A DNA stretch of 64,000 nucleotides from Candidatus Aenigmatarchaeota archaeon (GCA_038998335.1 JAVZHQ010000001.1:594165-658164); one strand, 5' to 3'; numbered from the stretch's first letter, positions 55,383 through 60,567 are shown. The notes: generated by a model not told the origin, from the letters alone. A program made the numbers and translations.

Positions 55383-55949
55383 CTAAGGTGTGACTCTTGA
55401 TAAAGAATAATAAGTTACATCTCCTTCCTTATCTACAACAGCCCACCACATAGTAGCTCTTATGTTGTGTGCAAGCCTAACTGCACGAGACATTTCTGGT
55501 AATGAAAAAGCAGCTTCCTCAGCAACTGCATGAACTATTGCTTTTGTATGCTCATGAGGTGCTTTTGGTCCTCTCTTCAGTTTAACTCCTCTTTCATAAA
55601 GTCTAAAGTGAGCACCAAACTTGAAACCAGTTTTAACAAGATAACCTCTATTCCTTAAGTCCCGATAAACTATAAATTGTGGATGAAATTGGTTAACATT
55701 TTTTGTTCCTATTTCTATTAATTCAGAAAGTTCGATTTTTCTTTTTTTATCATTTTCTTTAACAAAAACTCTAATCTTTCCCTTTTCAAGTAAGTAAGCA
55801 GCCTCTACCAAATCCAACTCAAGTCTGTTTGGGTTTTCTTCTGGTAACGGTTTACCATAACCAGAATCATCGTAAAGAATTACTGCTTCAGGATCCCAAA
55901 TTATTACTCTATTTTCTAATAGTTCACCTTCCCAAACTTTTTCGCTCAT
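55383..55949 (-). CDS. endA: tRNA-splicing endonuclease subunit (EndA family, 188 aa)
   Basis: VYRDLRNRGYLVKTGFKFGAHFRLYERG...HEHTKAIVHAV...RLAHNIRATMWWAVVDKEGDVTYYSL is collinear with the Methanocaldococcus EndA C-terminal domain. Confidence 0.88.
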   Translation of the reverse strand: MSEKVWEGELLENRVIIWDPEAVILYDDSGYGKPLPEENPNRLELDLVEAAYLLEKGKIRVFVKENDKKRKIELSELIEIGTKNVNQFHPQFIVYRDLRNRGYLVKTGFKFGAHFRLYERGVKLKRGPKAPHEHTKAIVHAVAEEAAFSLPEMSRAVRLAHNIRATMWWAVVDKEGDVTYYSLSRVTP

Positions 55950-56663: not shown

Positions 56664-56766
56664 TGGGACAGGAGGGATTTGAACCCTCGACACACCGGTA
56701 ACCGCTTAGTTCTTCAGCCGGTTGCTCTCCCGGGCTGAGCTTACAGCACATTAGTGATACTGTCCC
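56664..56766 (-). tRNA. tRNA-Phe (anticodon GAA) with two introns: 17 nt at 9/10 (56741-56757) and 12 nt at 37/38 (56699-56710)
   Basis: Minus-strand read: GGGACAG UA [UCACUAAUGUGCUGUAA] GCUC AGCCCGGGA GAGC A ACCGG CUGAAG[AACUAAGCGGUU]A CCGGU GUGUC GAGGG UUCAAAU CCCUC CUGUCCC A. The mature form would be 74 nt. Confidence 0.8.
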
Positions 56767-57538
56767 TACGACTGTCCCATTTCCTACATAATAAAATGGT
56801 TTCTAATTTATTTTGCTTGTTTAGATTTTGAAATCCTATCTCCTCTTTAAAATTAATTAATGAATTTAACCTTTTAATACGTAACCTTATTCCACAAGTT
56901 ATTACCCCATCCTTTCGTACATTGAGTGTGTTTGATATAAATATTGTTGATTTTATATTAAAGAATTTTTCAAGACCTTCTTTAATCTCATTTAAGAATT
57001 GGAAACCATTATCAAGTAAATTTTGGGATTTCCACATTTCCAAACCTATAAATGGGTTGTGTTTGCTGATGTCGACCGTGCCTTCACAATTGAAAACCAT
57101 CCTAACAAAACTTCTGAAACACTCTTTTTCGTTTTTAATCCAAGTTGGTACAGAAAACTCTTGCATTACCTTACAACCTTTTGGAACCCCTACTAAATGA
57201 AGTACTCTACTCAACAATTTACAATTCACGCCAAAATTGAAAGTTTTTCCAAATTTGTTTCCCTTACAAGGCCTCACTCTTCCTTTGATACCGAACAAAT
57301 TAAAAATTTCATTTCCAAATATTTCTAACTCTTGGAGATCTTTTGAAGTAAAATCAAATCTCCATTTAGGTTCACCTTGGAGATGCCCATCACACATCAA
57401 GGCTGCAACTATAGATGCTAGTTGTGGAGAAGAACGAACAGGAAACCAATTGCTATGTAAATTAATTGAATTTATTGCATGATCTCTCGATTTGAATAAC
57501 TTTATTACATCTTCTTCAGTTACTAAAATCTCACTCAT
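56741..57538 (-). CDS. Double-motif LAGLIDADG homing-endonuclease-like protein
   Basis: Motif 1 LASIVAALMCDGHL and motif 2 FVRMVFNCEGTV are about 100 aa apart. ATG at 57538 (the track start 57547 is GTG). The stop codon (56741-56743) is the last 3 nt of tRNA-Phe intron 1. Confidence 0.7.
   Translation of the reverse strand: MSEILVTEEDVIKLFKSRDHAINSINLHSNWFPVRSSPQLASIVAALMCDGHLQGEPKWRFDFTSKDLQELEIFGNEIFNLFGIKGRVRPCKGNKFGKTFNFGVNCKLLSRVLHLVGVPKGCKVMQEFSVPTWIKNEKECFRSFVRMVFNCEGTVDISKHNPFIGLEMWKSQNLLDNGFQFLNEIKEGLEKFFNIKSTIFISNTLNVRKDGVITCGIRLRIKRLNSLINFKEEIGFQNLNKQNKLETILLCRKWDSRRDSITNVL
56788..56797 (-). promoter_or_regulatory. TATA-box-like element for tRNA-Phe, embedded in the 3' end of the LAGLIDADG ORF
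   Basis: Minus-strand ATTTTATTAT spans -31 to -22 relative to the tRNA 5' end (56766). Confidence 0.35.
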
Positions 57539-57638
57539 TTTTAACACAAAATAAATAAGAGATAGCCATTTATTTATCTTTCGAAAGTTTAGTTCCGGTA
57601 AGTTCTTCTTTTAAGAACTTAGAATCTCTACAAACTAT

Positions 57639-59159: not shown

Positions 59160-59669
59160 ATGAAAAAACTAACTACCAAACAATACGTTTCAATATTTTT
59201 TTTAATACTCCTTGCGTTTTTCTTTTTAAGTTTTGCAGAAATAGCAGTAGAAGGTCCTTATGGAGGAGCGACTAAGAGTTATGGTTGGAAGATTCAGATT
59301 TATGATTCTGTCTATCTAAGAGAGTATCACTTTTTTCTATTTTATTTAACAATACCAACACTACTTTCAATTTCTATAATCTTAGTTGGGTTTGATTTAA
59401 GATTAATCAGTATTTTAATTTTAGGGTATTCAATTGGTAGTATTTTAGAAGACTTTTGTTGGTTTGCTTTTAACCCTTACTACGGAATCCACAAATTTTC
59501 GCCAGAATTTTATACCTGGACCATTTGGATAAATGTTTTAGGTTTAAAAATCCCTATACTGTACTTCATTTACTCACTAATAATTCTTGCTGATGTTTTC
59601 TTTATTTTAAAAATAATCCCAATTATCGAAAAACATAAACAAAATAAACCAGAAATGTTCGGATTTTAA
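59160..59669 (+). CDS. Polytopic membrane protein, unknown function
   Basis: 169 aa with about 5 hydrophobic segments. Confidence 0.6.
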   Translation: MKKLTTKQYVSIFFLILLAFFFLSFAEIAVEGPYGGATKSYGWKIQIYDSVYLREYHFFLFYLTIPTLLSISIILVGFDLRLISILILGYSIGSILEDFCWFAFNPYYGIHKFSPEFYTWTIWINVLGLKIPILYFIYSLIILADVFFILKIIPIIEKHKQNKPEMFGF

Positions 59670-59674
59670 TTTAG

Positions 59675-59761
59675 CGCCCTCGCTGGGATTTGAACCCAGG
59701 ACCTACCGGTTAACAGCCGGGTGCTCTACCACTGAGCTTTCCTCGTAATTACTACGAGGGC
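59675..59761 (-). tRNA. tRNA-Asn (anticodon GUU) with a 15-nt non-canonical intron at 8/9-9/10 (about 59738-59752)
   Basis: Minus-strand read: GCCCUCG UA [GUAAUUACGAGGAAA] GCUC AGUGGUA GAGC A CCCGG CUGUUAA CCGGU AGGUC CUGGG UUCAAAU CCCAG CGAGGGC G. The mature form would be 72 nt. Confidence 0.75.
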
Positions 59762-60512
59762 TGCGAGGGCTTAATATATTTTTTAACAACTTGTTTTCAT
59801 CAATTAAATATTCTTCTATACTTTTATAGAATTTCCTTAAATTATTAGGCGTTATAACAAAAACTTTATAACCTCTTTGTTGTAAATCCTTTATCTTCTT
59901 TTTTAATTTCATAGCTTTATCAAAACCTTTCCACATGCTACATTCTACAATAAGGTTACCAACCTTGAAATCTGGGAAATAATATTTTTTATTGACATTT
60001 ATACAAGGTTCGTATTGATAATTTATTCCAAATTGAAATAATGTATCAGCAATTTTCTTTTCTAAAGTATTTCTGACGAGTTCACCACGTTTGGTTTTAA
60101 ATTTGTAGCTTCCAATCTTCTTAAACCGTTCATATTGCTCTAAGAAATATTTTTCACCTAATTCTTTTCTAAGTTTTTTATGTAACCTGCTAGAAGCTTT
60201 TTTCATCTTAATTAGATTTTTTCTGAATGTTTTGCTTCTAACCTTCTTTAAGTAGCTGGCTTTACCACCAATCCTTTGTTTCCAGTTTTTATCTAACCGT
60301 TTTTGAATAATTTGCACGATATCAACTTCTTCTAAACCTAAAAATTTCATGAGTTTGTTAAGAACATATCGAGAAATAGGTCTACCTTTATGTTTATAAT
60401 AATATATTGCAGATTTCACTACATTTAAGGTTTTTGCCAACTTTCTTTCACTACCAGCCTTTTTTATGGCCATGTTAATTATGTTTTTCTGATCTTTTAA
60501 TTTAAAATACAT
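59703..60512 (-). CDS. HTH plus putative restriction-endonuclease-like (PD-(D/E)xK?) protein immediately upstream of, and reading into, tRNA-Asn
   Basis: N-terminal ERKLAKTLNVVKSAIYYYKHKG is HTH-like. C-terminal GELVRNTLEKKIADTLFQFGINYQYEP...YYFPDFKVGNLIVECSMWKG is nuclease-like by eye. The last ~60 nt of the ORF are tRNA-Asn sequence (..SPRSPRSNYEESSVVEHPAVNR), so the true C-terminus is uncertain. Confidence 0.55.
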   Translation of the reverse strand: MYFKLKDQKNIINMAIKKAGSERKLAKTLNVVKSAIYYYKHKGRPISRYVLNKLMKFLGLEEVDIVQIIQKRLDKNWKQRIGGKASYLKKVRSKTFRKNLIKMKKASSRLHKKLRKELGEKYFLEQYERFKKIGSYKFKTKRGELVRNTLEKKIADTLFQFGINYQYEPCINVNKKYYFPDFKVGNLIVECSMWKGFDKAMKLKKKIKDLQQRGYKVFVITPNNLRKFYKSIEEYLIDENKLLKNILSPRSPRSNYEESSVVEHPAVNR

Positions 60513-60548
60513 AATAAAAACTTTGTTTATTACTATTTAAAGTTACTT

Positions 60549-60567
60549 CCAACTGAGCTACGAGGGC
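60549..60567 (-). repeat. Orphan copy of tRNA-Asn positions 1-19 (GCCCTCGTAGCTCAGTTGG) upstream of the nuclease ORF
   Basis: Reverse complement of CCAACTGAGCTACGAGGGC. It is a perfect acceptor 5' strand plus U8A9, the D-stem 5' strand and the start of the D-loop, with no matching 3' half nearby. It lies 806 nt upstream of the 5' end of the complete gene. Confidence 0.85.

What the first reader, a model, noticed from the sequence alone, without database searches (positions are those of the whole stretch)
59675..60567. tRNA-Asn with a position-8/9 mini-intron, an upstream nuclease-like ORF reading into it, and an orphan copy of tRNA positions 1-19 on the far side of the ORF
The minus strand reads GCCCUCG-UA-[GUAAUUACGAGGAAA]-GCUCAGUGGUAGAGC.. 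. Deleting the 15 nt gives a perfect 72-nt tRNA-Asn(GUU).

A BHB-like fold can be drawn:
- outer pairs (A)GC/GC(U)
- central helix CCUC/GAGG
- bulges GUA and AAA

Cleavage of this fold again yields U8-A9-G10. A competing 7-bp hairpin (CCUCGUA/UACGAGG) makes it less clean than the Phe case.

The layout parallels the tRNA-Phe locus. A same-strand ORF (269 aa, with an HTH and a possible PD-(D/E)xK nuclease motif YYFPDF..LIVEC..K) runs into the tRNA. The exon-1 string AGCCCUCG is tandemly duplicated (59755-59762 and 59764-59771).

In addition, 806 nt upstream, on the other side of the ORF, lies GCCCUCGUAGCUCAGUUGG (60549-60567). This is an uninterrupted copy of tRNA positions 1-19, with a D-loop slightly different from the complete gene.

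Two readings are possible:
(i) an ~0.8-kb ORF-bearing BHB intron whose 5' exon is the distal copy, with alternative use of proximal or distal exon 1
(ii) a mobile cassette (nuclease gene plus its own tRNA-Asn with mini-intron) that inserted into, and replaced, a resident intron-less tRNA-Asn gene, leaving its first 19 nt

Two independent tRNA loci with the same unusual organisation within 3 kb argue for a common mobile mechanism rather than chance.
Basis: partly seen in the sequence, partly recalled or inferred. Interest (0 to 1): 0.8.

Follow-up and report, generated by a model that had tools for sequence, protein, structure and literature searches.

The report
Nuclease cassette that rebuilt a tRNA-Asn gene
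A small mobile gene for a DNA-cutting enzyme has inserted into the tRNA-Asn gene of a tiny (DPANN) archaeon, bringing its own replacement front end of the tRNA with a 15-base mini-intron and leaving the first 19 bases of the old gene stranded; this shows one way archaeal tRNA genes acquire odd introns.

Summary

**What it is.** The window comes from a Candidatus Aenigmatarchaeota MAG. The 269-aa ORF is an HTH plus PD-(D/E)xK nuclease, by both profile and fold. It belongs to a DPANN-wide family. In 41 of 44 analysable GTDB loci this ORF reads into a same-strand tRNA: 39 tRNA-Asn and 2 tRNA-Thr.

**Recurring features in the family:**
- 34 of 41 of those tRNAs carry an insert in the D-arm.
- 23 of 32 loci keep an orphan copy of tRNA positions 1-15 about 35-95 nt upstream of the ORF start.

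**Empty sites.** A syntenic relative (L126) has TopoVI-A followed by an intron-less, ORF-less tRNA-Asn, and likewise an intron-less, ORF-less tRNA-Phe. A second filled/empty pair exists: L006 (filled) and L077 (empty).

**Verdict on the two readings.** Reading (ii), an inserted cassette that replaced the resident gene's 5' part, is supported. Reading (i), a 0.8-kb intron spliced from the distal exon, is not. In relatives the distal copies do not fit the 3' acceptor strand.

**Mechanism.** The mechanism is inferred, not shown. Homing-type double-strand-break repair is the favoured model, and site-specific integration is the rival.

**Precedent.** The closest precedent is one Caldiarchaeum tRNA-Thr case (Sugahara 2012). 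I rate this a new variant of a known kind, of fairly high interest.

The parts
60549..60567 (-). Orphan copy of tRNA-Asn positions 1-19 (GCCCTCGTAGCTCAGTTGG). It is the relic of the resident gene's 5' end and sits 51 nt after the TopoVI-A stop codon.
   Evidence: Exact 19-mer, expected 0.01 by chance. It lies where the whole intron-less tRNA-Asn lies in the syntenic relative L126. Orphans at the same relative place occur in 23 of 32 related loci.
60534..60541 (-). TTTAAATA, a TATA-like box 21 nt before the ORF's ATG. It is the inferred promoter of a nearly leaderless nuclease mRNA and marks the left end of the inserted DNA.
   Evidence: Sequence. A TTTAAATA or TTTATATA box follows the orphan in most related loci. 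Promoter function is inferred.
59703..60512 (-). 269-aa ORF made of an N-terminal XRE/Cro-type HTH, a helical linker and a C-terminal PD-(D/E)xK nuclease domain. The last 19 residues are read from the tRNA and are predicted to be disordered.
   Evidence: ORF. Family of 81 homologues; 60 clusters at E<1e-30. AF2 model has pLDDT 88.6, with residues 251-269 below 50.
60309..60491 (-). HTH DNA-binding domain (residues about 8-68).
   Evidence: Weak Pfam YdaS/Cro hits. PDB profile hits to CylR2 and C.BclI. Foldseek hits to C.Esp1396I and HipB with probability 1.00.
59808..60083 (-). PD-(D/E)xK nuclease domain (residues about 144-235). Invariant residues are R147, N148, E151, Y178-F-P-D181-F, E190, W194 and K206.
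   Evidence: The profile matches T7 endonuclease I (2pfj) at E=1.4e-4, aligning E151, D181 and E190 with the catalytic E20, D55 and E65. The Foldseek top hit is the homing endonuclease I-Bth0305I catalytic domain. PHROG 29037 'endonuclease' scores 2.6e-7.
59821..59829 (-). CTATAAAAG inside the conserved protein motif (R/K)KFYK. It is a TATA-like box about 50 nt upstream of the tRNA copies and a possible internal tRNA promoter.
   Evidence: TTTTATAAA is conserved at this place in the related loci shown. Promoter function is inferred only.
59764..59771 (-). Upstream tandem copy of the acceptor 5' strand (AGCCCTCG), lying in the ORF tail and pre-tRNA leader.
   Evidence: Located. Conserved in L006, L022, L025 and L051. 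In the MFE fold it pairs with the 3' acceptor strand while the proximal copy pairs with the mini-intron. If used as exon 1 it would give C8.
59753..59761 (-). tRNA-Asn exon 1 (G1-A9, GCCCTCGTA).
   Evidence: Complementary to the 3' strand CGAGGGC. ARAGORN calls a tRNA-Asn after excision.
59738..59752 (-). 15-nt mini-intron (GTAATTACGAGGAAA) between A9 and G10. It is BHB-like: strict geometry can be drawn, but a 7-bp hairpin is more stable.
   Evidence: Absent from the syntenic ORF-less genes in L126, L017 and L077. Present in the filled relatives L006 and L022.
59675..59737 (-). tRNA-Asn exon 2 (G10 to discriminator G73), anticodon GUU, with no encoded CCA.
   Evidence: Rfam tRNA 48.9 bits over 59738-59683. 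The spliced product is 72 nt.
56664..57547 (-). Parallel locus: a 268-aa LAGLIDADG ORF (56741-57547) reading into tRNA-Phe(GAA). Exon 1 is 56758-56766, a 17-nt strict BHB mini-intron is 56741-56757, and a tandem GGGACAGT copy is 56771-56778. There is also a 37/38 intron.
   Evidence: Pfam LAGLIDADG_3. Rfam 30.9 bits. BHB excision gives tRNA-Phe. The syntenic L126 has an intron-less, ORF-less tRNA-Phe.
55383..55949 (-). tRNA-splicing endonuclease EndA (188 aa), the enzyme expected to remove the mini-introns.
   Evidence: Pfam tRNA_int_endo 5e-27 and tRNA_int_endo_N 2e-17.

Best explanation
The region 59738-60548 is an inserted selfish cassette of about 0.8 kb.

**Contents of the cassette**
- Its own promoter.
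- A gene for a sequence-specific nuclease: an HTH domain plus a PD-(D/E)xK domain of the T7 endonuclease I / Vsr / I-Bth0305I type.
- At its right end, a replacement copy of the 5' part of tRNA-Asn, interrupted after A9 by a 15-nt BHB-type mini-intron.

**What the insertion did.** The cassette entered the resident, intron-less tRNA-Asn gene in the D-loop, after about position 19. The old positions 1-19 are now a dead orphan upstream. The working tRNA is made from the cassette-borne 5' segment joined to the downstream body.

**How the tRNA is made (inferred).**
- The pre-tRNA is transcribed either from within the ORF's 3' end or by read-through from the ORF.
- EndA and the RNA ligase remove the 15 nt.
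- RNase P removes the leader, which contains the ORF tail and a tandem copy of the acceptor strand.

**How the cassette spreads (inferred).** The nuclease cuts intron-less tRNA-Asn genes in or near the D-arm. The break is repaired from a cassette-bearing copy, using the orphan and the tRNA body as homology arms. This is intron homing in which the element complements the gene with a spare 5' segment rather than being spliced out whole.

**Role of the mini-intron (inferred, weakest step).** The mini-intron and the truncation of the orphan keep both copies of the target interrupted. That would protect the carrier from its own nuclease.

**Shown versus inferred.** Shown here: the insertion, the replacement of the 5' segment, the nuclease fold, the recurrence across DPANN, and the co-occurrence with D-arm inserts. 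Inferred: nuclease activity and target, the repair pathway, the promoters, the splicing, and the immunity role.
For: **Empty against filled sites**
- L126 has TopoVI-A, about 60 nt of spacer, an intron-less tRNA-Asn (70.8 bits), then the GT2 gene. It has no ORF and no mini-intron. Its 5' half is identical to the window's spliced tRNA.
- L077 has AsnRS, 13 nt, then a tRNA-Asn without ORF or D-arm insert. L006 has AsnRS, orphan, ORF, then a tRNA-Asn with a 16-nt 9/10 intron.

**Recurrence**
- ORF homologues read into tRNA-Asn (39 loci) or tRNA-Thr (2 loci) in 41 of 44 analysable GTDB loci. These span Aenigmat-, Micr-, Iain-, Woese-, Pace- and Nanoarchaeota, with unrelated upstream genes.

**Orphans**
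- The best match to tRNA nt 1-15 within 200 nt upstream of the ORF start is at least 11/15 in 23 of 32 loci, and perfect in 5. It always lies at -17 to -95. The 96 controls never exceed 10/15.
- By my own count from the listing, mismatches are concentrated at acceptor-stem positions 1-7 and at positions 13 and 15, and are rare at the universal positions 8-12.
- The orphans of L006 and L022 (GCCTTCG) match the allele carried by relative L017. The orphans therefore look like the 5' ends of other real tRNA-Asn alleles.

**D-arm inserts**
- 34 of 41 ORF-linked tRNAs have a D-arm insert, against 0 of 4 ORF-less DPANN tRNA-Asn genes. Fisher p=0.003 on the earlier count of 28/34 against 0/4. These loci are not phylogenetically independent.

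**Splicing geometry**
- Strict BHB excision restores ARAGORN-recognisable tRNAs in the window (Asn and Phe) and in L006, L011, L012 and L016.

**Nuclease assignment**
- The tail read from the tRNA is disordered, and it is read in different frames in different members.

**Other nuclease families do the same thing**
- A LAGLIDADG ORF precedes tRNA-Phe in the window.
- In L017 a LAGLIDADG ORF lies behind tRNA-Asn, with an orphan 3' piece of the resident gene still next to GT2.
Against: - No activity, target site or transcript data exist.
- The Lys of the classical (D/E)xK triad is T or S in this family. K206 may substitute, but this is untested.
- The Pfam Phage_endo_I model is not matched by the window ORF.
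- Foldseek E-values are weak, 3e-3 at best.
- Seven family members (L029, L030, L032-L035, L039) have no D-arm insert, and five of the six of these checked keep intact nuclease motifs (L032 showed no motif; L039 was not checked). The mini-intron is therefore not an obligatory immunity device.
- The family sits beside tRNA-Asn in almost every genome that carries it. That could also reflect old vertical inheritance of a linked pair, with the orphan kept matched by gene conversion.
- No within-population presence/absence polymorphism was found: all seven assemblies of this species are filled.
- The tandem acceptor copy is not explained by the homing model.
Confidence: 0.6

Rival explanations
1. 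Site-specific integration. The cassette is the remnant, or the whole, of an integrative element that recombined an attP carrying the tRNA 5' part plus intron with the tRNA gene (attB). This is the model proposed for the Caldiarchaeum tRNA-Thr locus. The ORF would be the recombinase or an accessory DNA-binding protein.
For: - Direct repeats of the tRNA 5' part flank the insert, as at integration borders.
- The ORF lies next to the reconstituted tRNA on the same strand, and an intron is present only in the reconstituted copy. This matches the layout in Sugahara 2012 (PMC3293823). That insert also carries an 813-bp ORF, similar in size to the 810-bp ORF here.
- T7 endonuclease I-like enzymes act on branched recombination intermediates (established knowledge).
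Against: - The insert is only about 0.8 kb, with one ORF, in every lineage examined.
- There is no tyrosine or serine recombinase domain.
- Orphans often differ from the functional copy inside the presumed core.
- No larger element or circular form was seen.
Confidence: 0.17
2. Reading (i). The whole 0.8 kb is one ORF-bearing BHB intron, and the distal 19-mer supplies exon 1. The 5' half of the BHB (AGC|CCUC|GUA) occurs three times, so EndA could use any of the three copies.
For: - In the window the distal copy is intact and is preceded by A, so it can draw the same outer and central helices with GAGG-AAA-GCU.
- ORF-bearing BHB introns are known in archaeal rRNA genes (established knowledge; PMC4496867 listed).
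Against: - In relatives the distal copies would mispair with the local 3' acceptor strand or are decayed. Examples are L045 GCCCCTA against the required GCCCTTG, L009, and L012.
- The proximal copy is always a perfect partner, and local pairing is far more favourable.
- A complete second exon 1 inside an intron would be superfluous.
Confidence: 0.04
3. A host gene, not a mobile element. The ORF is a conserved DPANN DNA-binding or nuclease protein co-transcribed with tRNA-Asn, for example in regulation or repair. The upstream tRNA-like piece is a regulatory or promoter feature maintained by selection.
For: - The ORF is linked to tRNA-Asn almost universally across DPANN phyla.
- Nuclease motifs are conserved and the ORFs are intact.
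- The orphan's position relative to the ORF start is conserved.
Against: - Close relatives lack the ORF at the syntenic site (L126, L077, L017).
- Upstream neighbours are unrelated between lineages.
- Orphans range from 15/15 to undetectable.
- Many fragments and pseudogenes exist in the family (L043, L066).
- A different nuclease family (LAGLIDADG) shows the same layout at tRNA-Phe.
Confidence: 0.08
4. Chance repeat or assembly artefact.
For: Short repeats can be created by mis-assembly in metagenomes.
Against: - Seven independent assemblies give the same sequence.
- The 19-mer is expected 0.01 times by chance.
- The layout recurs in about 40 genomes.
Confidence: 0.01

Closest known systems
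Insertion at the tRNA-Thr(GGU) locus of Caldiarchaeum subterraneum (Sugahara et al. 2012, PLoS One, PMC3293823)
   Same: - A 5' fragment of the tRNA lies upstream of an insert.
- The insert ends with a replacement 5' part of the tRNA that carries a new non-canonical intron (24/25 there, 9/10 here).
- An ORF of about 270 codons sits next to the reconstituted tRNA on the same strand.
- An allele without the insert and without the extra intron exists.
- The authors also proposed that a mobile element delivers the intron and that the intron may block further invasion.
   Different: - That report concerns one locus in one population, with a 1.87-kb insert that includes a repeated 545-bp region.
- Its ORF was classed only as a 'putative recombinase' by SVMProt, and the event was interpreted as pNOB8-like attP/attB integration.
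- Here the insert is 0.8 kb, the ORF is a PD-(D/E)xK nuclease, the target is tRNA-Asn or tRNA-Thr(UGU), and the family spans six DPANN lineages.
- Homology between the two ORFs could not be tested.
Free-standing homing endonucleases and 'collaborative homing' in T4-like phages and cyanophages (mobE/I-TevIII, F-CphI; PMC2790892, PMC6083498)
   Same: - The nuclease gene lies beside, not inside, the interrupted target.
- An intron splits the recognition site in the carrier genome.
- Spread is by break repair that co-converts flanking DNA.
   Different: - Those cases involve group I introns in phage protein-coding genes.
- Here the intron is a protein-spliced BHB mini-intron in a cellular archaeal tRNA gene.
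- Here the element also carries a duplicate of the target gene's 5' end.
- Cleavage has not been shown here.
EDxHD/Vsr-like homing endonuclease I-Bth0305I (PDB 3r3p) and T7 endonuclease I (PDB 2pfj, 1m0d)
   Same: - These are the best structural and sequence-profile matches of the C-terminal domain.
- The catalytic E...PD...E positions are shared.
- The architecture is an N-terminal DNA-binding region plus a C-terminal nuclease.
   Different: - Similarity is remote: E=1.4e-4 by profile, and 3e-3 with TM 0.59 by fold.
- The triad Lys is replaced by T or S.
- The Pfam Phage_endo_I threshold is not reached.
- The host is archaeal and the context is a tRNA gene.
Non-canonical and multiple BHB introns of archaeal tRNAs, including DPANN (PMC5829648; Marck & Grosjean 2003 and Fujishima 2010, both from my own knowledge)
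   Same: - A short intron outside position 37/38, bounded by a (relaxed) BHB.
- Several introns per gene in relatives.
- A 188-aa, single-gene EndA (alpha4-like size) in the genome, in a superphylum where EndA variants with the L3 loop go with many disrupted tRNAs.
   Different: Known cases are described as introns only, without a linked nuclease gene, an orphan exon copy or a tandem acceptor copy.
LAGLIDADG ORFs inside BHB introns of archaeal rRNA genes (PMC4496867)
   Same: A homing-endonuclease family is associated with a BHB-spliced interruption of a stable-RNA gene in Archaea.
   Different: - There the ORF lies inside the intron and is spliced out with it.
- Here the ORF lies upstream of a complete exon 1, and only 15-17 nt are spliced.

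Membership tests
Archaeal BHB (EndA-spliced) tRNA intron | Two 3-nt bulges separated by a 4-bp helix (hBHBh'), or an accepted relaxed form, with cleavage sites at the exon-intron borders. | tested here: met
   The strict geometry AGC|CCUC|GUA...GAGG|AAA|GCU predicts exactly the 15-nt excision. Caveat: a 7-bp hairpin is 7 kcal/mol more stable than the strict form, leaving one bulge only, i.e. a relaxed hBH or bulge-helix-loop motif.
Archaeal BHB (EndA-spliced) tRNA intron | Excision restores a canonical cloverleaf tRNA. | tested here: met
   ARAGORN calls tRNA-Asn(gtt) after excision and nothing before it. The 72-nt product has its first 40 nt (G1 through the anticodon stem, GCCCTCG...CTGTTAACCGG) identical to the intron-less gene of L126.
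Archaeal BHB (EndA-spliced) tRNA intron | The splicing endonuclease is encoded by the genome. | tested here: met
   EndA at 55383-55949, with Pfam PF01974 at 5e-27 and PF02778 at 2e-17.
Archaeal BHB (EndA-spliced) tRNA intron | Splicing is observed, as a mature tRNA lacking the insert. | not testable with these tools
   No RNA data are available.
Homing endonuclease gene (free-standing) | The protein belongs to a nuclease family used by homing endonucleases and has a DNA-binding module. | tested here: met
   PD-(D/E)xK domain: T7 endonuclease I profile E=1.4e-4. The Foldseek top hit is I-Bth0305I. An XRE-type HTH is present. The classical Lys is not conserved.
Homing endonuclease gene (free-standing) | Patchy distribution, with occupied and empty alleles of the same site in related genomes. 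| tested here: met
   Filled: window, L006, L022, L028. Empty: L126, L077. Differently filled: L017. All are Aenigmatarchaeota-like relatives. No polymorphism was seen within one species.
Homing endonuclease gene (free-standing) | Site-specific cleavage of the empty allele, and resistance of the occupied allele. | not testable with these tools
   This needs protein and DNA substrates. The only indirect hint is that D-arm inserts occur in 34 of 41 occupied and 0 of 4 empty genes.
Integrase-type integrative element (SSV / pNOB8 type) | Encodes a tyrosine (or serine) recombinase. | tested here: not met
   No integrase domain was found by Pfam, PDB profile or fold search.
Integrase-type integrative element (SSV / pNOB8 type) | A direct repeat of part of the tRNA at both borders of the insert. 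| tested here: met
   Orphan positions 1-19 at 60549-60567 and the proximal copy at 59753-59761 plus 59737 onward.
ORF-bearing archaeal intron (rRNA-intron type) | The ORF lies between the two splice sites, and exon sequence is not duplicated. | tested here: not met
   A full exon 1 lies downstream of the ORF. The distal copies in relatives are not usable exons.
Pfam PF05367 Phage_endo_I | Score above the Pfam gathering threshold. | tested here: not met
   Not reported for the window ORF. Only sub-threshold scores (18-21 bits against a 29.1 cut-off) appear in distant relatives.

The most novel reading that the evidence does not exclude
DPANN archaea harbour a previously undescribed class of 'self-complementing' homing cassettes.
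- Each cassette is a nuclease gene (PD-(D/E)xK at tRNA-Asn and tRNA-Thr; LAGLIDADG at tRNA-Phe and tRNA-Asn) fused to a spare segment of its target tRNA.
- It invades the tRNA gene at the DNA level like an intron, but repairs it by substitution rather than by being spliced out.
- The short BHB mini-intron in the spare segment splits the nuclease's own recognition site.
- Such cassettes would be a main source of non-canonical tRNA introns and of orphan tRNA fragments in these lineages.
Probability: 0.4. Interest if true: 0.85.

Novelty: new variant of a known kind. Interest (0 to 1): 0.7.

Why it matters
How archaeal tRNA genes acquire introns at non-canonical positions, and why they become fragmented, is a long-standing question. 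Evidence so far is mostly inferential, with one population-level case in Caldiarchaeum.

This locus and its roughly 40 relatives provide a natural series:
- empty sites;
- freshly filled sites with perfect orphans;
- old sites with decayed orphans;
- sites hit by a different nuclease family.

In this series the arrival of a D-arm intron is tied to a defined nuclease gene. That makes the question directly testable: express the 250-aa protein and ask whether it cuts intron-less tRNA-Asn DNA while sparing the intron-bearing copy.

There are two practical consequences:
- It explains why standard tRNA finders miss tRNA-Asn and tRNA-Phe in these genomes.
- Gene callers extend the nuclease ORFs into tRNAs.

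If the nucleases are specific for about 20 bp of a universally conserved gene, they would be new compact site-specific enzymes.

Tried and rejected
- **ARAGORN with default settings.** It found only tRNA-Val in the window. The Asn and Phe genes needed Rfam and manual excision.
- **Pfam on the ORF.** It gave only weak HTH hits. The nuclease assignment needed a family profile and a structure model.
- **A 5' orphan of tRNA-Phe upstream of the LAGLIDADG ORF.** The best local match, GAAGAACTTACCGG against GAAGAACTAAGCGG, is not above shuffles (15 of 300 reach it). No orphan is claimed there. By the same local-alignment test the Asn orphan is also unremarkable (12 of 300), because the mini-intron splits the match; the exact 19-mer test is the valid one.
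- **A genome-contig scan for the intact 5' half of the tRNA.** It was useful only because it included L077, L088 and L126.
- **The mini-intron as an obligatory immunity device.** This is weakened by seven family members without a D-arm insert, five of the six checked having intact nuclease motifs.
- **The upstream tandem acceptor copy as the real exon 1.** Rejected because it would give C8 or A8 in tRNA-Asn and C9 in tRNA-Phe instead of U8-A9.
- **L017 as an empty site.** It lacks the PD-(D/E)xK ORF and the D-arm intron, but it carries a different (LAGLIDADG) cassette.
- **Not testable here.** These are whether the MAG has a second intact tRNA-Asn, whether the Caldiarchaeum 'b' ORF is homologous, and whether there is within-population polymorphism.
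Full report
**1. The observation**

On the minus strand the window reads ...AAGCCCTCGCAGCCCTCGTA[GTAATTACGAGGAAA]GCTCAGTGGTAGAGCACCCGGCTGTTAACCGGTAGGTCCTGGGTTCAAATCCCAGCGAGGGCG.

- Coordinates: G1 = 59761, U8-A9 = 59754-59753, insert = 59752-59738, G10 = 59737, discriminator G = 59675.
- ARAGORN does not see the gene. Rfam matches only model positions 9-63 at 48.9 bits.
- The octamer AGCCCTCG occurs three times in 64 kb: 59755-62, 59764-71 and 60561-68. No shuffle out of 100 reaches three copies.
- The 19-mer GCCCTCGTAGCTCAGTTGG lies at 60549-60567, with 0.01 expected by chance. That is 806 nt upstream of the proximal G1.
- The 269-aa ORF 59703-60512 runs through exon 1, the insert and the tRNA body to a TAG at tRNA positions 44-46.
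- The same sequence is present in GTDB contig JAWBTW010000004.1, a Candidatus Aenigmatarchaeota MAG (JZ-1_201709_bins_53). It is also in GCA_044343365.1, with one SNP plus one end gap over about 1470 nt, and in five Logan assemblies. It is not an assembly artefact.

**2. The mini-intron**

A script enumerated strict hBHBh' geometries: a 4-bp central helix, two 3-nt bulges and an outer helix of at least 2 bp. It spliced each candidate and ran ARAGORN on the product.

- In the window only two excisions gave a tRNA, and both gave tRNA-Asn(gtt). One is the 15-nt excision from the proximal copy. The other is a 24-nt excision from the upstream tandem copy.
- The spliced product is 72 nt. Its 5' half is identical to an intron-less gene in a relative.
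The hairpin CCUCGUA/UACGAGG with the outer helix scores -10.3 kcal/mol, against -3.3 for the strict BHB. The motif is strict only if three pairs open; otherwise it is a one-bulge relaxed form.
- The window encodes EndA at 55383-55949. In DPANN, alpha4-type EndAs with an extra loop are associated with heavily disrupted tRNA genes (PMC5829648).

**3. The ORF**

- Pfam gives only weak Cro/YdaS HTH hits.
- The ORF has 81 homologues, all 'hypothetical' and all from DPANN lineages. A full HMMER search finds 60 clusters at E<1e-30 and 145 at E<1e-10, many of them fragments.
- A 25-sequence alignment has invariant R147, N148, E151, Y167, F179-P-D181-F182, E190, W194 and K206.
- Its profile matches T7 endonuclease I (2pfj at E=1.4e-4; 1m0d at 3e-4). 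The alignment places E151, D181 and E190 on the catalytic E20, D55 and E65. The position of K67 is T or S in this family.
- The AlphaFold model is confident, with pLDDT 88.6. Residues 251-269, which are read from the tRNA, are the exception at pLDDT below 50.
- The best Foldseek hit is the catalytic domain of the homing endonuclease I-Bth0305I (3r3p; E=3e-3, target TM 0.59), followed by T7 endonuclease I. The N-terminus matches XRE/Cro-type HTH proteins.
- PHROG 29037 'endonuclease' scores 2.6e-7. Distant relatives combine several HTH domains with a sub-threshold Phage_endo_I domain, and one carries a homing-endonuclease-associated repeat.
- The 'nuclease-like' reading is therefore supported at the level of fold. 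Activity is untested.

**4. The same layout elsewhere**

I fetched contexts for seven homologues and 51 GTDB loci.

- A script located T-arm plus acceptor pairs. Rfam and direct inspection filled the gaps.
- Of 44 analysable loci, the ORF reads into a tRNA-Asn(GTT), or ends within one base of it, in 39. It does the same with a tRNA-Thr(TGT) in 2.
- The lineages are Aenigmat-, Micr-, Iain-, Woese-, Pace- and Nanoarchaeota.
- The upstream neighbours are unrelated between lineages: TopoVI-A, AsnRS, ribosomal protein S3Ae, NMD3 and others.
- The C-terminal residues differ by reading frame across the tRNA (...ASIA*...TPL*...MPS*...SSVTS*). The overlap is therefore positional, not a conserved peptide.
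- 34 of the 41 tRNAs have an insert in the D-arm. It lies after A9 in the window clade and in the D-loop after GCTYAG elsewhere. Many have further introns.
- Strict BHB excisions restore ARAGORN tRNAs in L006, L011, L012 and L016.

**5. The orphan is systematic**

- For 32 loci I searched the 200 nt upstream of the ORF start for the first 15 nt of the local tRNA.
- The best match was at least 11/15 in 23 loci and perfect in 5. It always lay 17-95 nt before the start codon. The 96 control searches never exceeded 10/15.
- The orphan is followed by a conserved TWDGGAAG... or TAATGYTT stretch and then a TTTAAATA or TTTATATA box about 20-25 nt before the ATG. I read this as the cassette's left end and the ORF promoter. 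This is inference.
- By my count from the listing, mismatches between orphan and functional copy fall mostly at acceptor-stem positions 1-7 and at positions 13 and 15. These positions vary among real tRNA-Asn genes. Mismatches are rare at the universal positions 8-12.
- The orphans of L006 and L022 (GCCTTCG...) match the allele that relative L017 uses (GCCTTCG/CGAAGGC).
- Several orphans would mispair with the local 3' strand, for example L045, L009 and L012. The orphans are therefore relics of resident alleles, not working exons. This is the main argument against reading (i).

**6. Empty sites**

- L126 (archaeon SMAG_U8349) is collinear with the window. Its order is TopoVI-A, about 60 nt, tRNA-Asn (70.8 bits, no intron), GT2, tRNA-Phe (67.7 bits, no intron), peptidase M54 ... 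EndA.
- The window differs from L126 in several ways. It has the orphan plus PD-(D/E)xK ORF plus 9/10 mini-intron at tRNA-Asn. It has a LAGLIDADG ORF plus 9/10 mini-intron (and a 37/38 intron) at tRNA-Phe. It also has two extra genes.
- A second pair is L077 and L006. L077 has AsnRS, 13 nt, then tRNA-Asn with no ORF and no D-arm insert. L006 has AsnRS, orphan, ORF, then tRNA-Asn with a 16-nt 9/10 intron.
- D-arm inserts occur in 34 of 41 ORF-linked genes and in 0 of 4 ORF-less DPANN tRNA-Asn genes. Fisher p=0.003 on an earlier count. The loci are not independent.

**7. A mirror case**

In L017 the tRNA-Asn has an intact 5' half. It is followed by a 218-aa LAGLIDADG ORF and then by TTCACTAATCGCGTCGAGGGCG. 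That stretch aligns with the T-loop-to-3'-end of the L126 tRNA-Asn, and the alignment continues into the GT2 gene. A different nuclease family has thus replaced the 5' two-thirds of the same gene and left a 3' orphan.

**8. Mechanism**

- Shown here: an insertion of about 0.8 kb into the D-loop region of a resident tRNA-Asn gene, carrying a nuclease gene and a replacement 5' segment with a mini-intron.
- Inferred, and favoured at about 0.6: homing. The nuclease cuts intron-less tRNA-Asn DNA, and repair copies the cassette using the orphan and the tRNA body as homology arms. This would explain how the cassette reaches the same gene in unrelated neighbourhoods. It would also explain why orphans resemble foreign alleles.
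- The mini-intron may protect the carrier's functional copy. However, seven members lack any D-arm insert, and five of the six checked keep intact nuclease motifs. I hold this step at about one in three.
- The main rival is site-specific integration as modelled for Caldiarchaeum. It fits the flanking repeats but not the absence of a recombinase or the minimal size.

**9. The tandem acceptor copy**

- It is conserved in the 9/10-intron loci of both nuclease families: window Asn and Phe, L006, L022, L018, and in degenerate form in L017. It also occurs at L028 tRNA-Phe, where no LAGLIDADG ORF lies directly upstream.
- In 7 of 7 MFE folds the upstream copy pairs with the 3' acceptor strand while the proximal copy pairs with the mini-intron.
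- As exon 1 it would give C8 or A8 in tRNA-Asn and C9 in tRNA-Phe, so the proximal copy is the real exon.
- A role as a folding decoy would let the splice motif and an acceptor-like stem form together. This is a hypothesis only.

**10. Comparison and novelty**

- Literature searches found no description of this family or layout in DPANN.
- The nearest precedent is the single Caldiarchaeum tRNA-Thr locus (PMC3293823).
- Free-standing homing endonucleases with intron-split targets are known in phages (PMC2790892, PMC6083498).
- ORF-bearing BHB introns are known in rRNA genes (PMC4496867).
- I therefore rate this a new variant of a known kind, with interest 0.7.

Noticed in passing
window 56664-57547 (-): A 268-aa LAGLIDADG ORF reads into tRNA-Phe(GAA). 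The tRNA has a clean strict BHB 17-nt intron after A9 (56741-56757), a tandem GGGACAGT copy (56771-56778) and a 37/38 intron. The syntenic relative L126 has an intron-less, ORF-less tRNA-Phe. No 5' orphan was detectable upstream of the ORF.
   Followed up: partly
L017 951-1715: A 218-aa LAGLIDADG ORF lies downstream of tRNA-Asn. It is followed by an orphan 3' piece (T-loop to discriminator) of a resident L126-like tRNA-Asn, still adjacent to the GT2 gene. This is the mirror image of the window's arrangement.
   Followed up: partly
window 59764-59771; also L006, L022, L025, L051, L018, L017, L028: A tandem copy of the acceptor 5' strand sits just upstream of exon 1 in loci whose mini-intron pairs with the acceptor strand. 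In MFE folds it takes over pairing with the 3' strand. Its function is unexplained; a folding decoy is one possibility.
   Followed up: partly
window 59821-59829 and the equivalent place in related loci: The conserved protein motif (R/K)KFYK is encoded by ...TTTTATAAA..., a consensus-like archaeal TATA box about 50 nt upstream of the tRNA. The ORF's 3' end may double as the tRNA promoter.
   Followed up: no
L017 503-750: Between TopoVI-A and tRNA-Asn lies a stretch that reads by eye like the C-terminal zinc-finger end of an IS200/IS605 TnpB (..C.NCG..DRD.NAA.NI..). No search was run on it.
   Followed up: no
L006 2538-2615: A second tRNA-like gene with anticodon GTT, an encoded CCA and an atypical D-arm (Rfam 48 bits) lies 1.4 kb upstream of the cassette-borne tRNA-Asn, on the far side of AsnRS.
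   Followed up: no
L002 vs L001/window 59160-59669: One assembly of the same species (SRR21619498) lacks the 169-aa membrane-protein gene that follows tRNA-Asn in the window, so the Macro-domain gene comes directly after the tRNA. This is a strain-level indel next to the cassette.
   Followed up: no
L028 about 2230-2560: In another Aenigmatarchaeota MAG the ORF reads into a tRNA-Asn with three inserts (D-loop, anticodon stem, T-loop). It is followed by a tRNA-Phe with a 15-nt 9/10 mini-intron and a degenerate tandem acceptor copy, but no LAGLIDADG ORF directly upstream.
   Followed up: no
L040 / L041: An identical cassette-bearing sequence is filed under a Woesearchaeota MAG and, as a 2.4-kb contig, under a 'Chthoniobacterales bacterium' MAG. 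The latter is probably a binning error.
   Followed up: no
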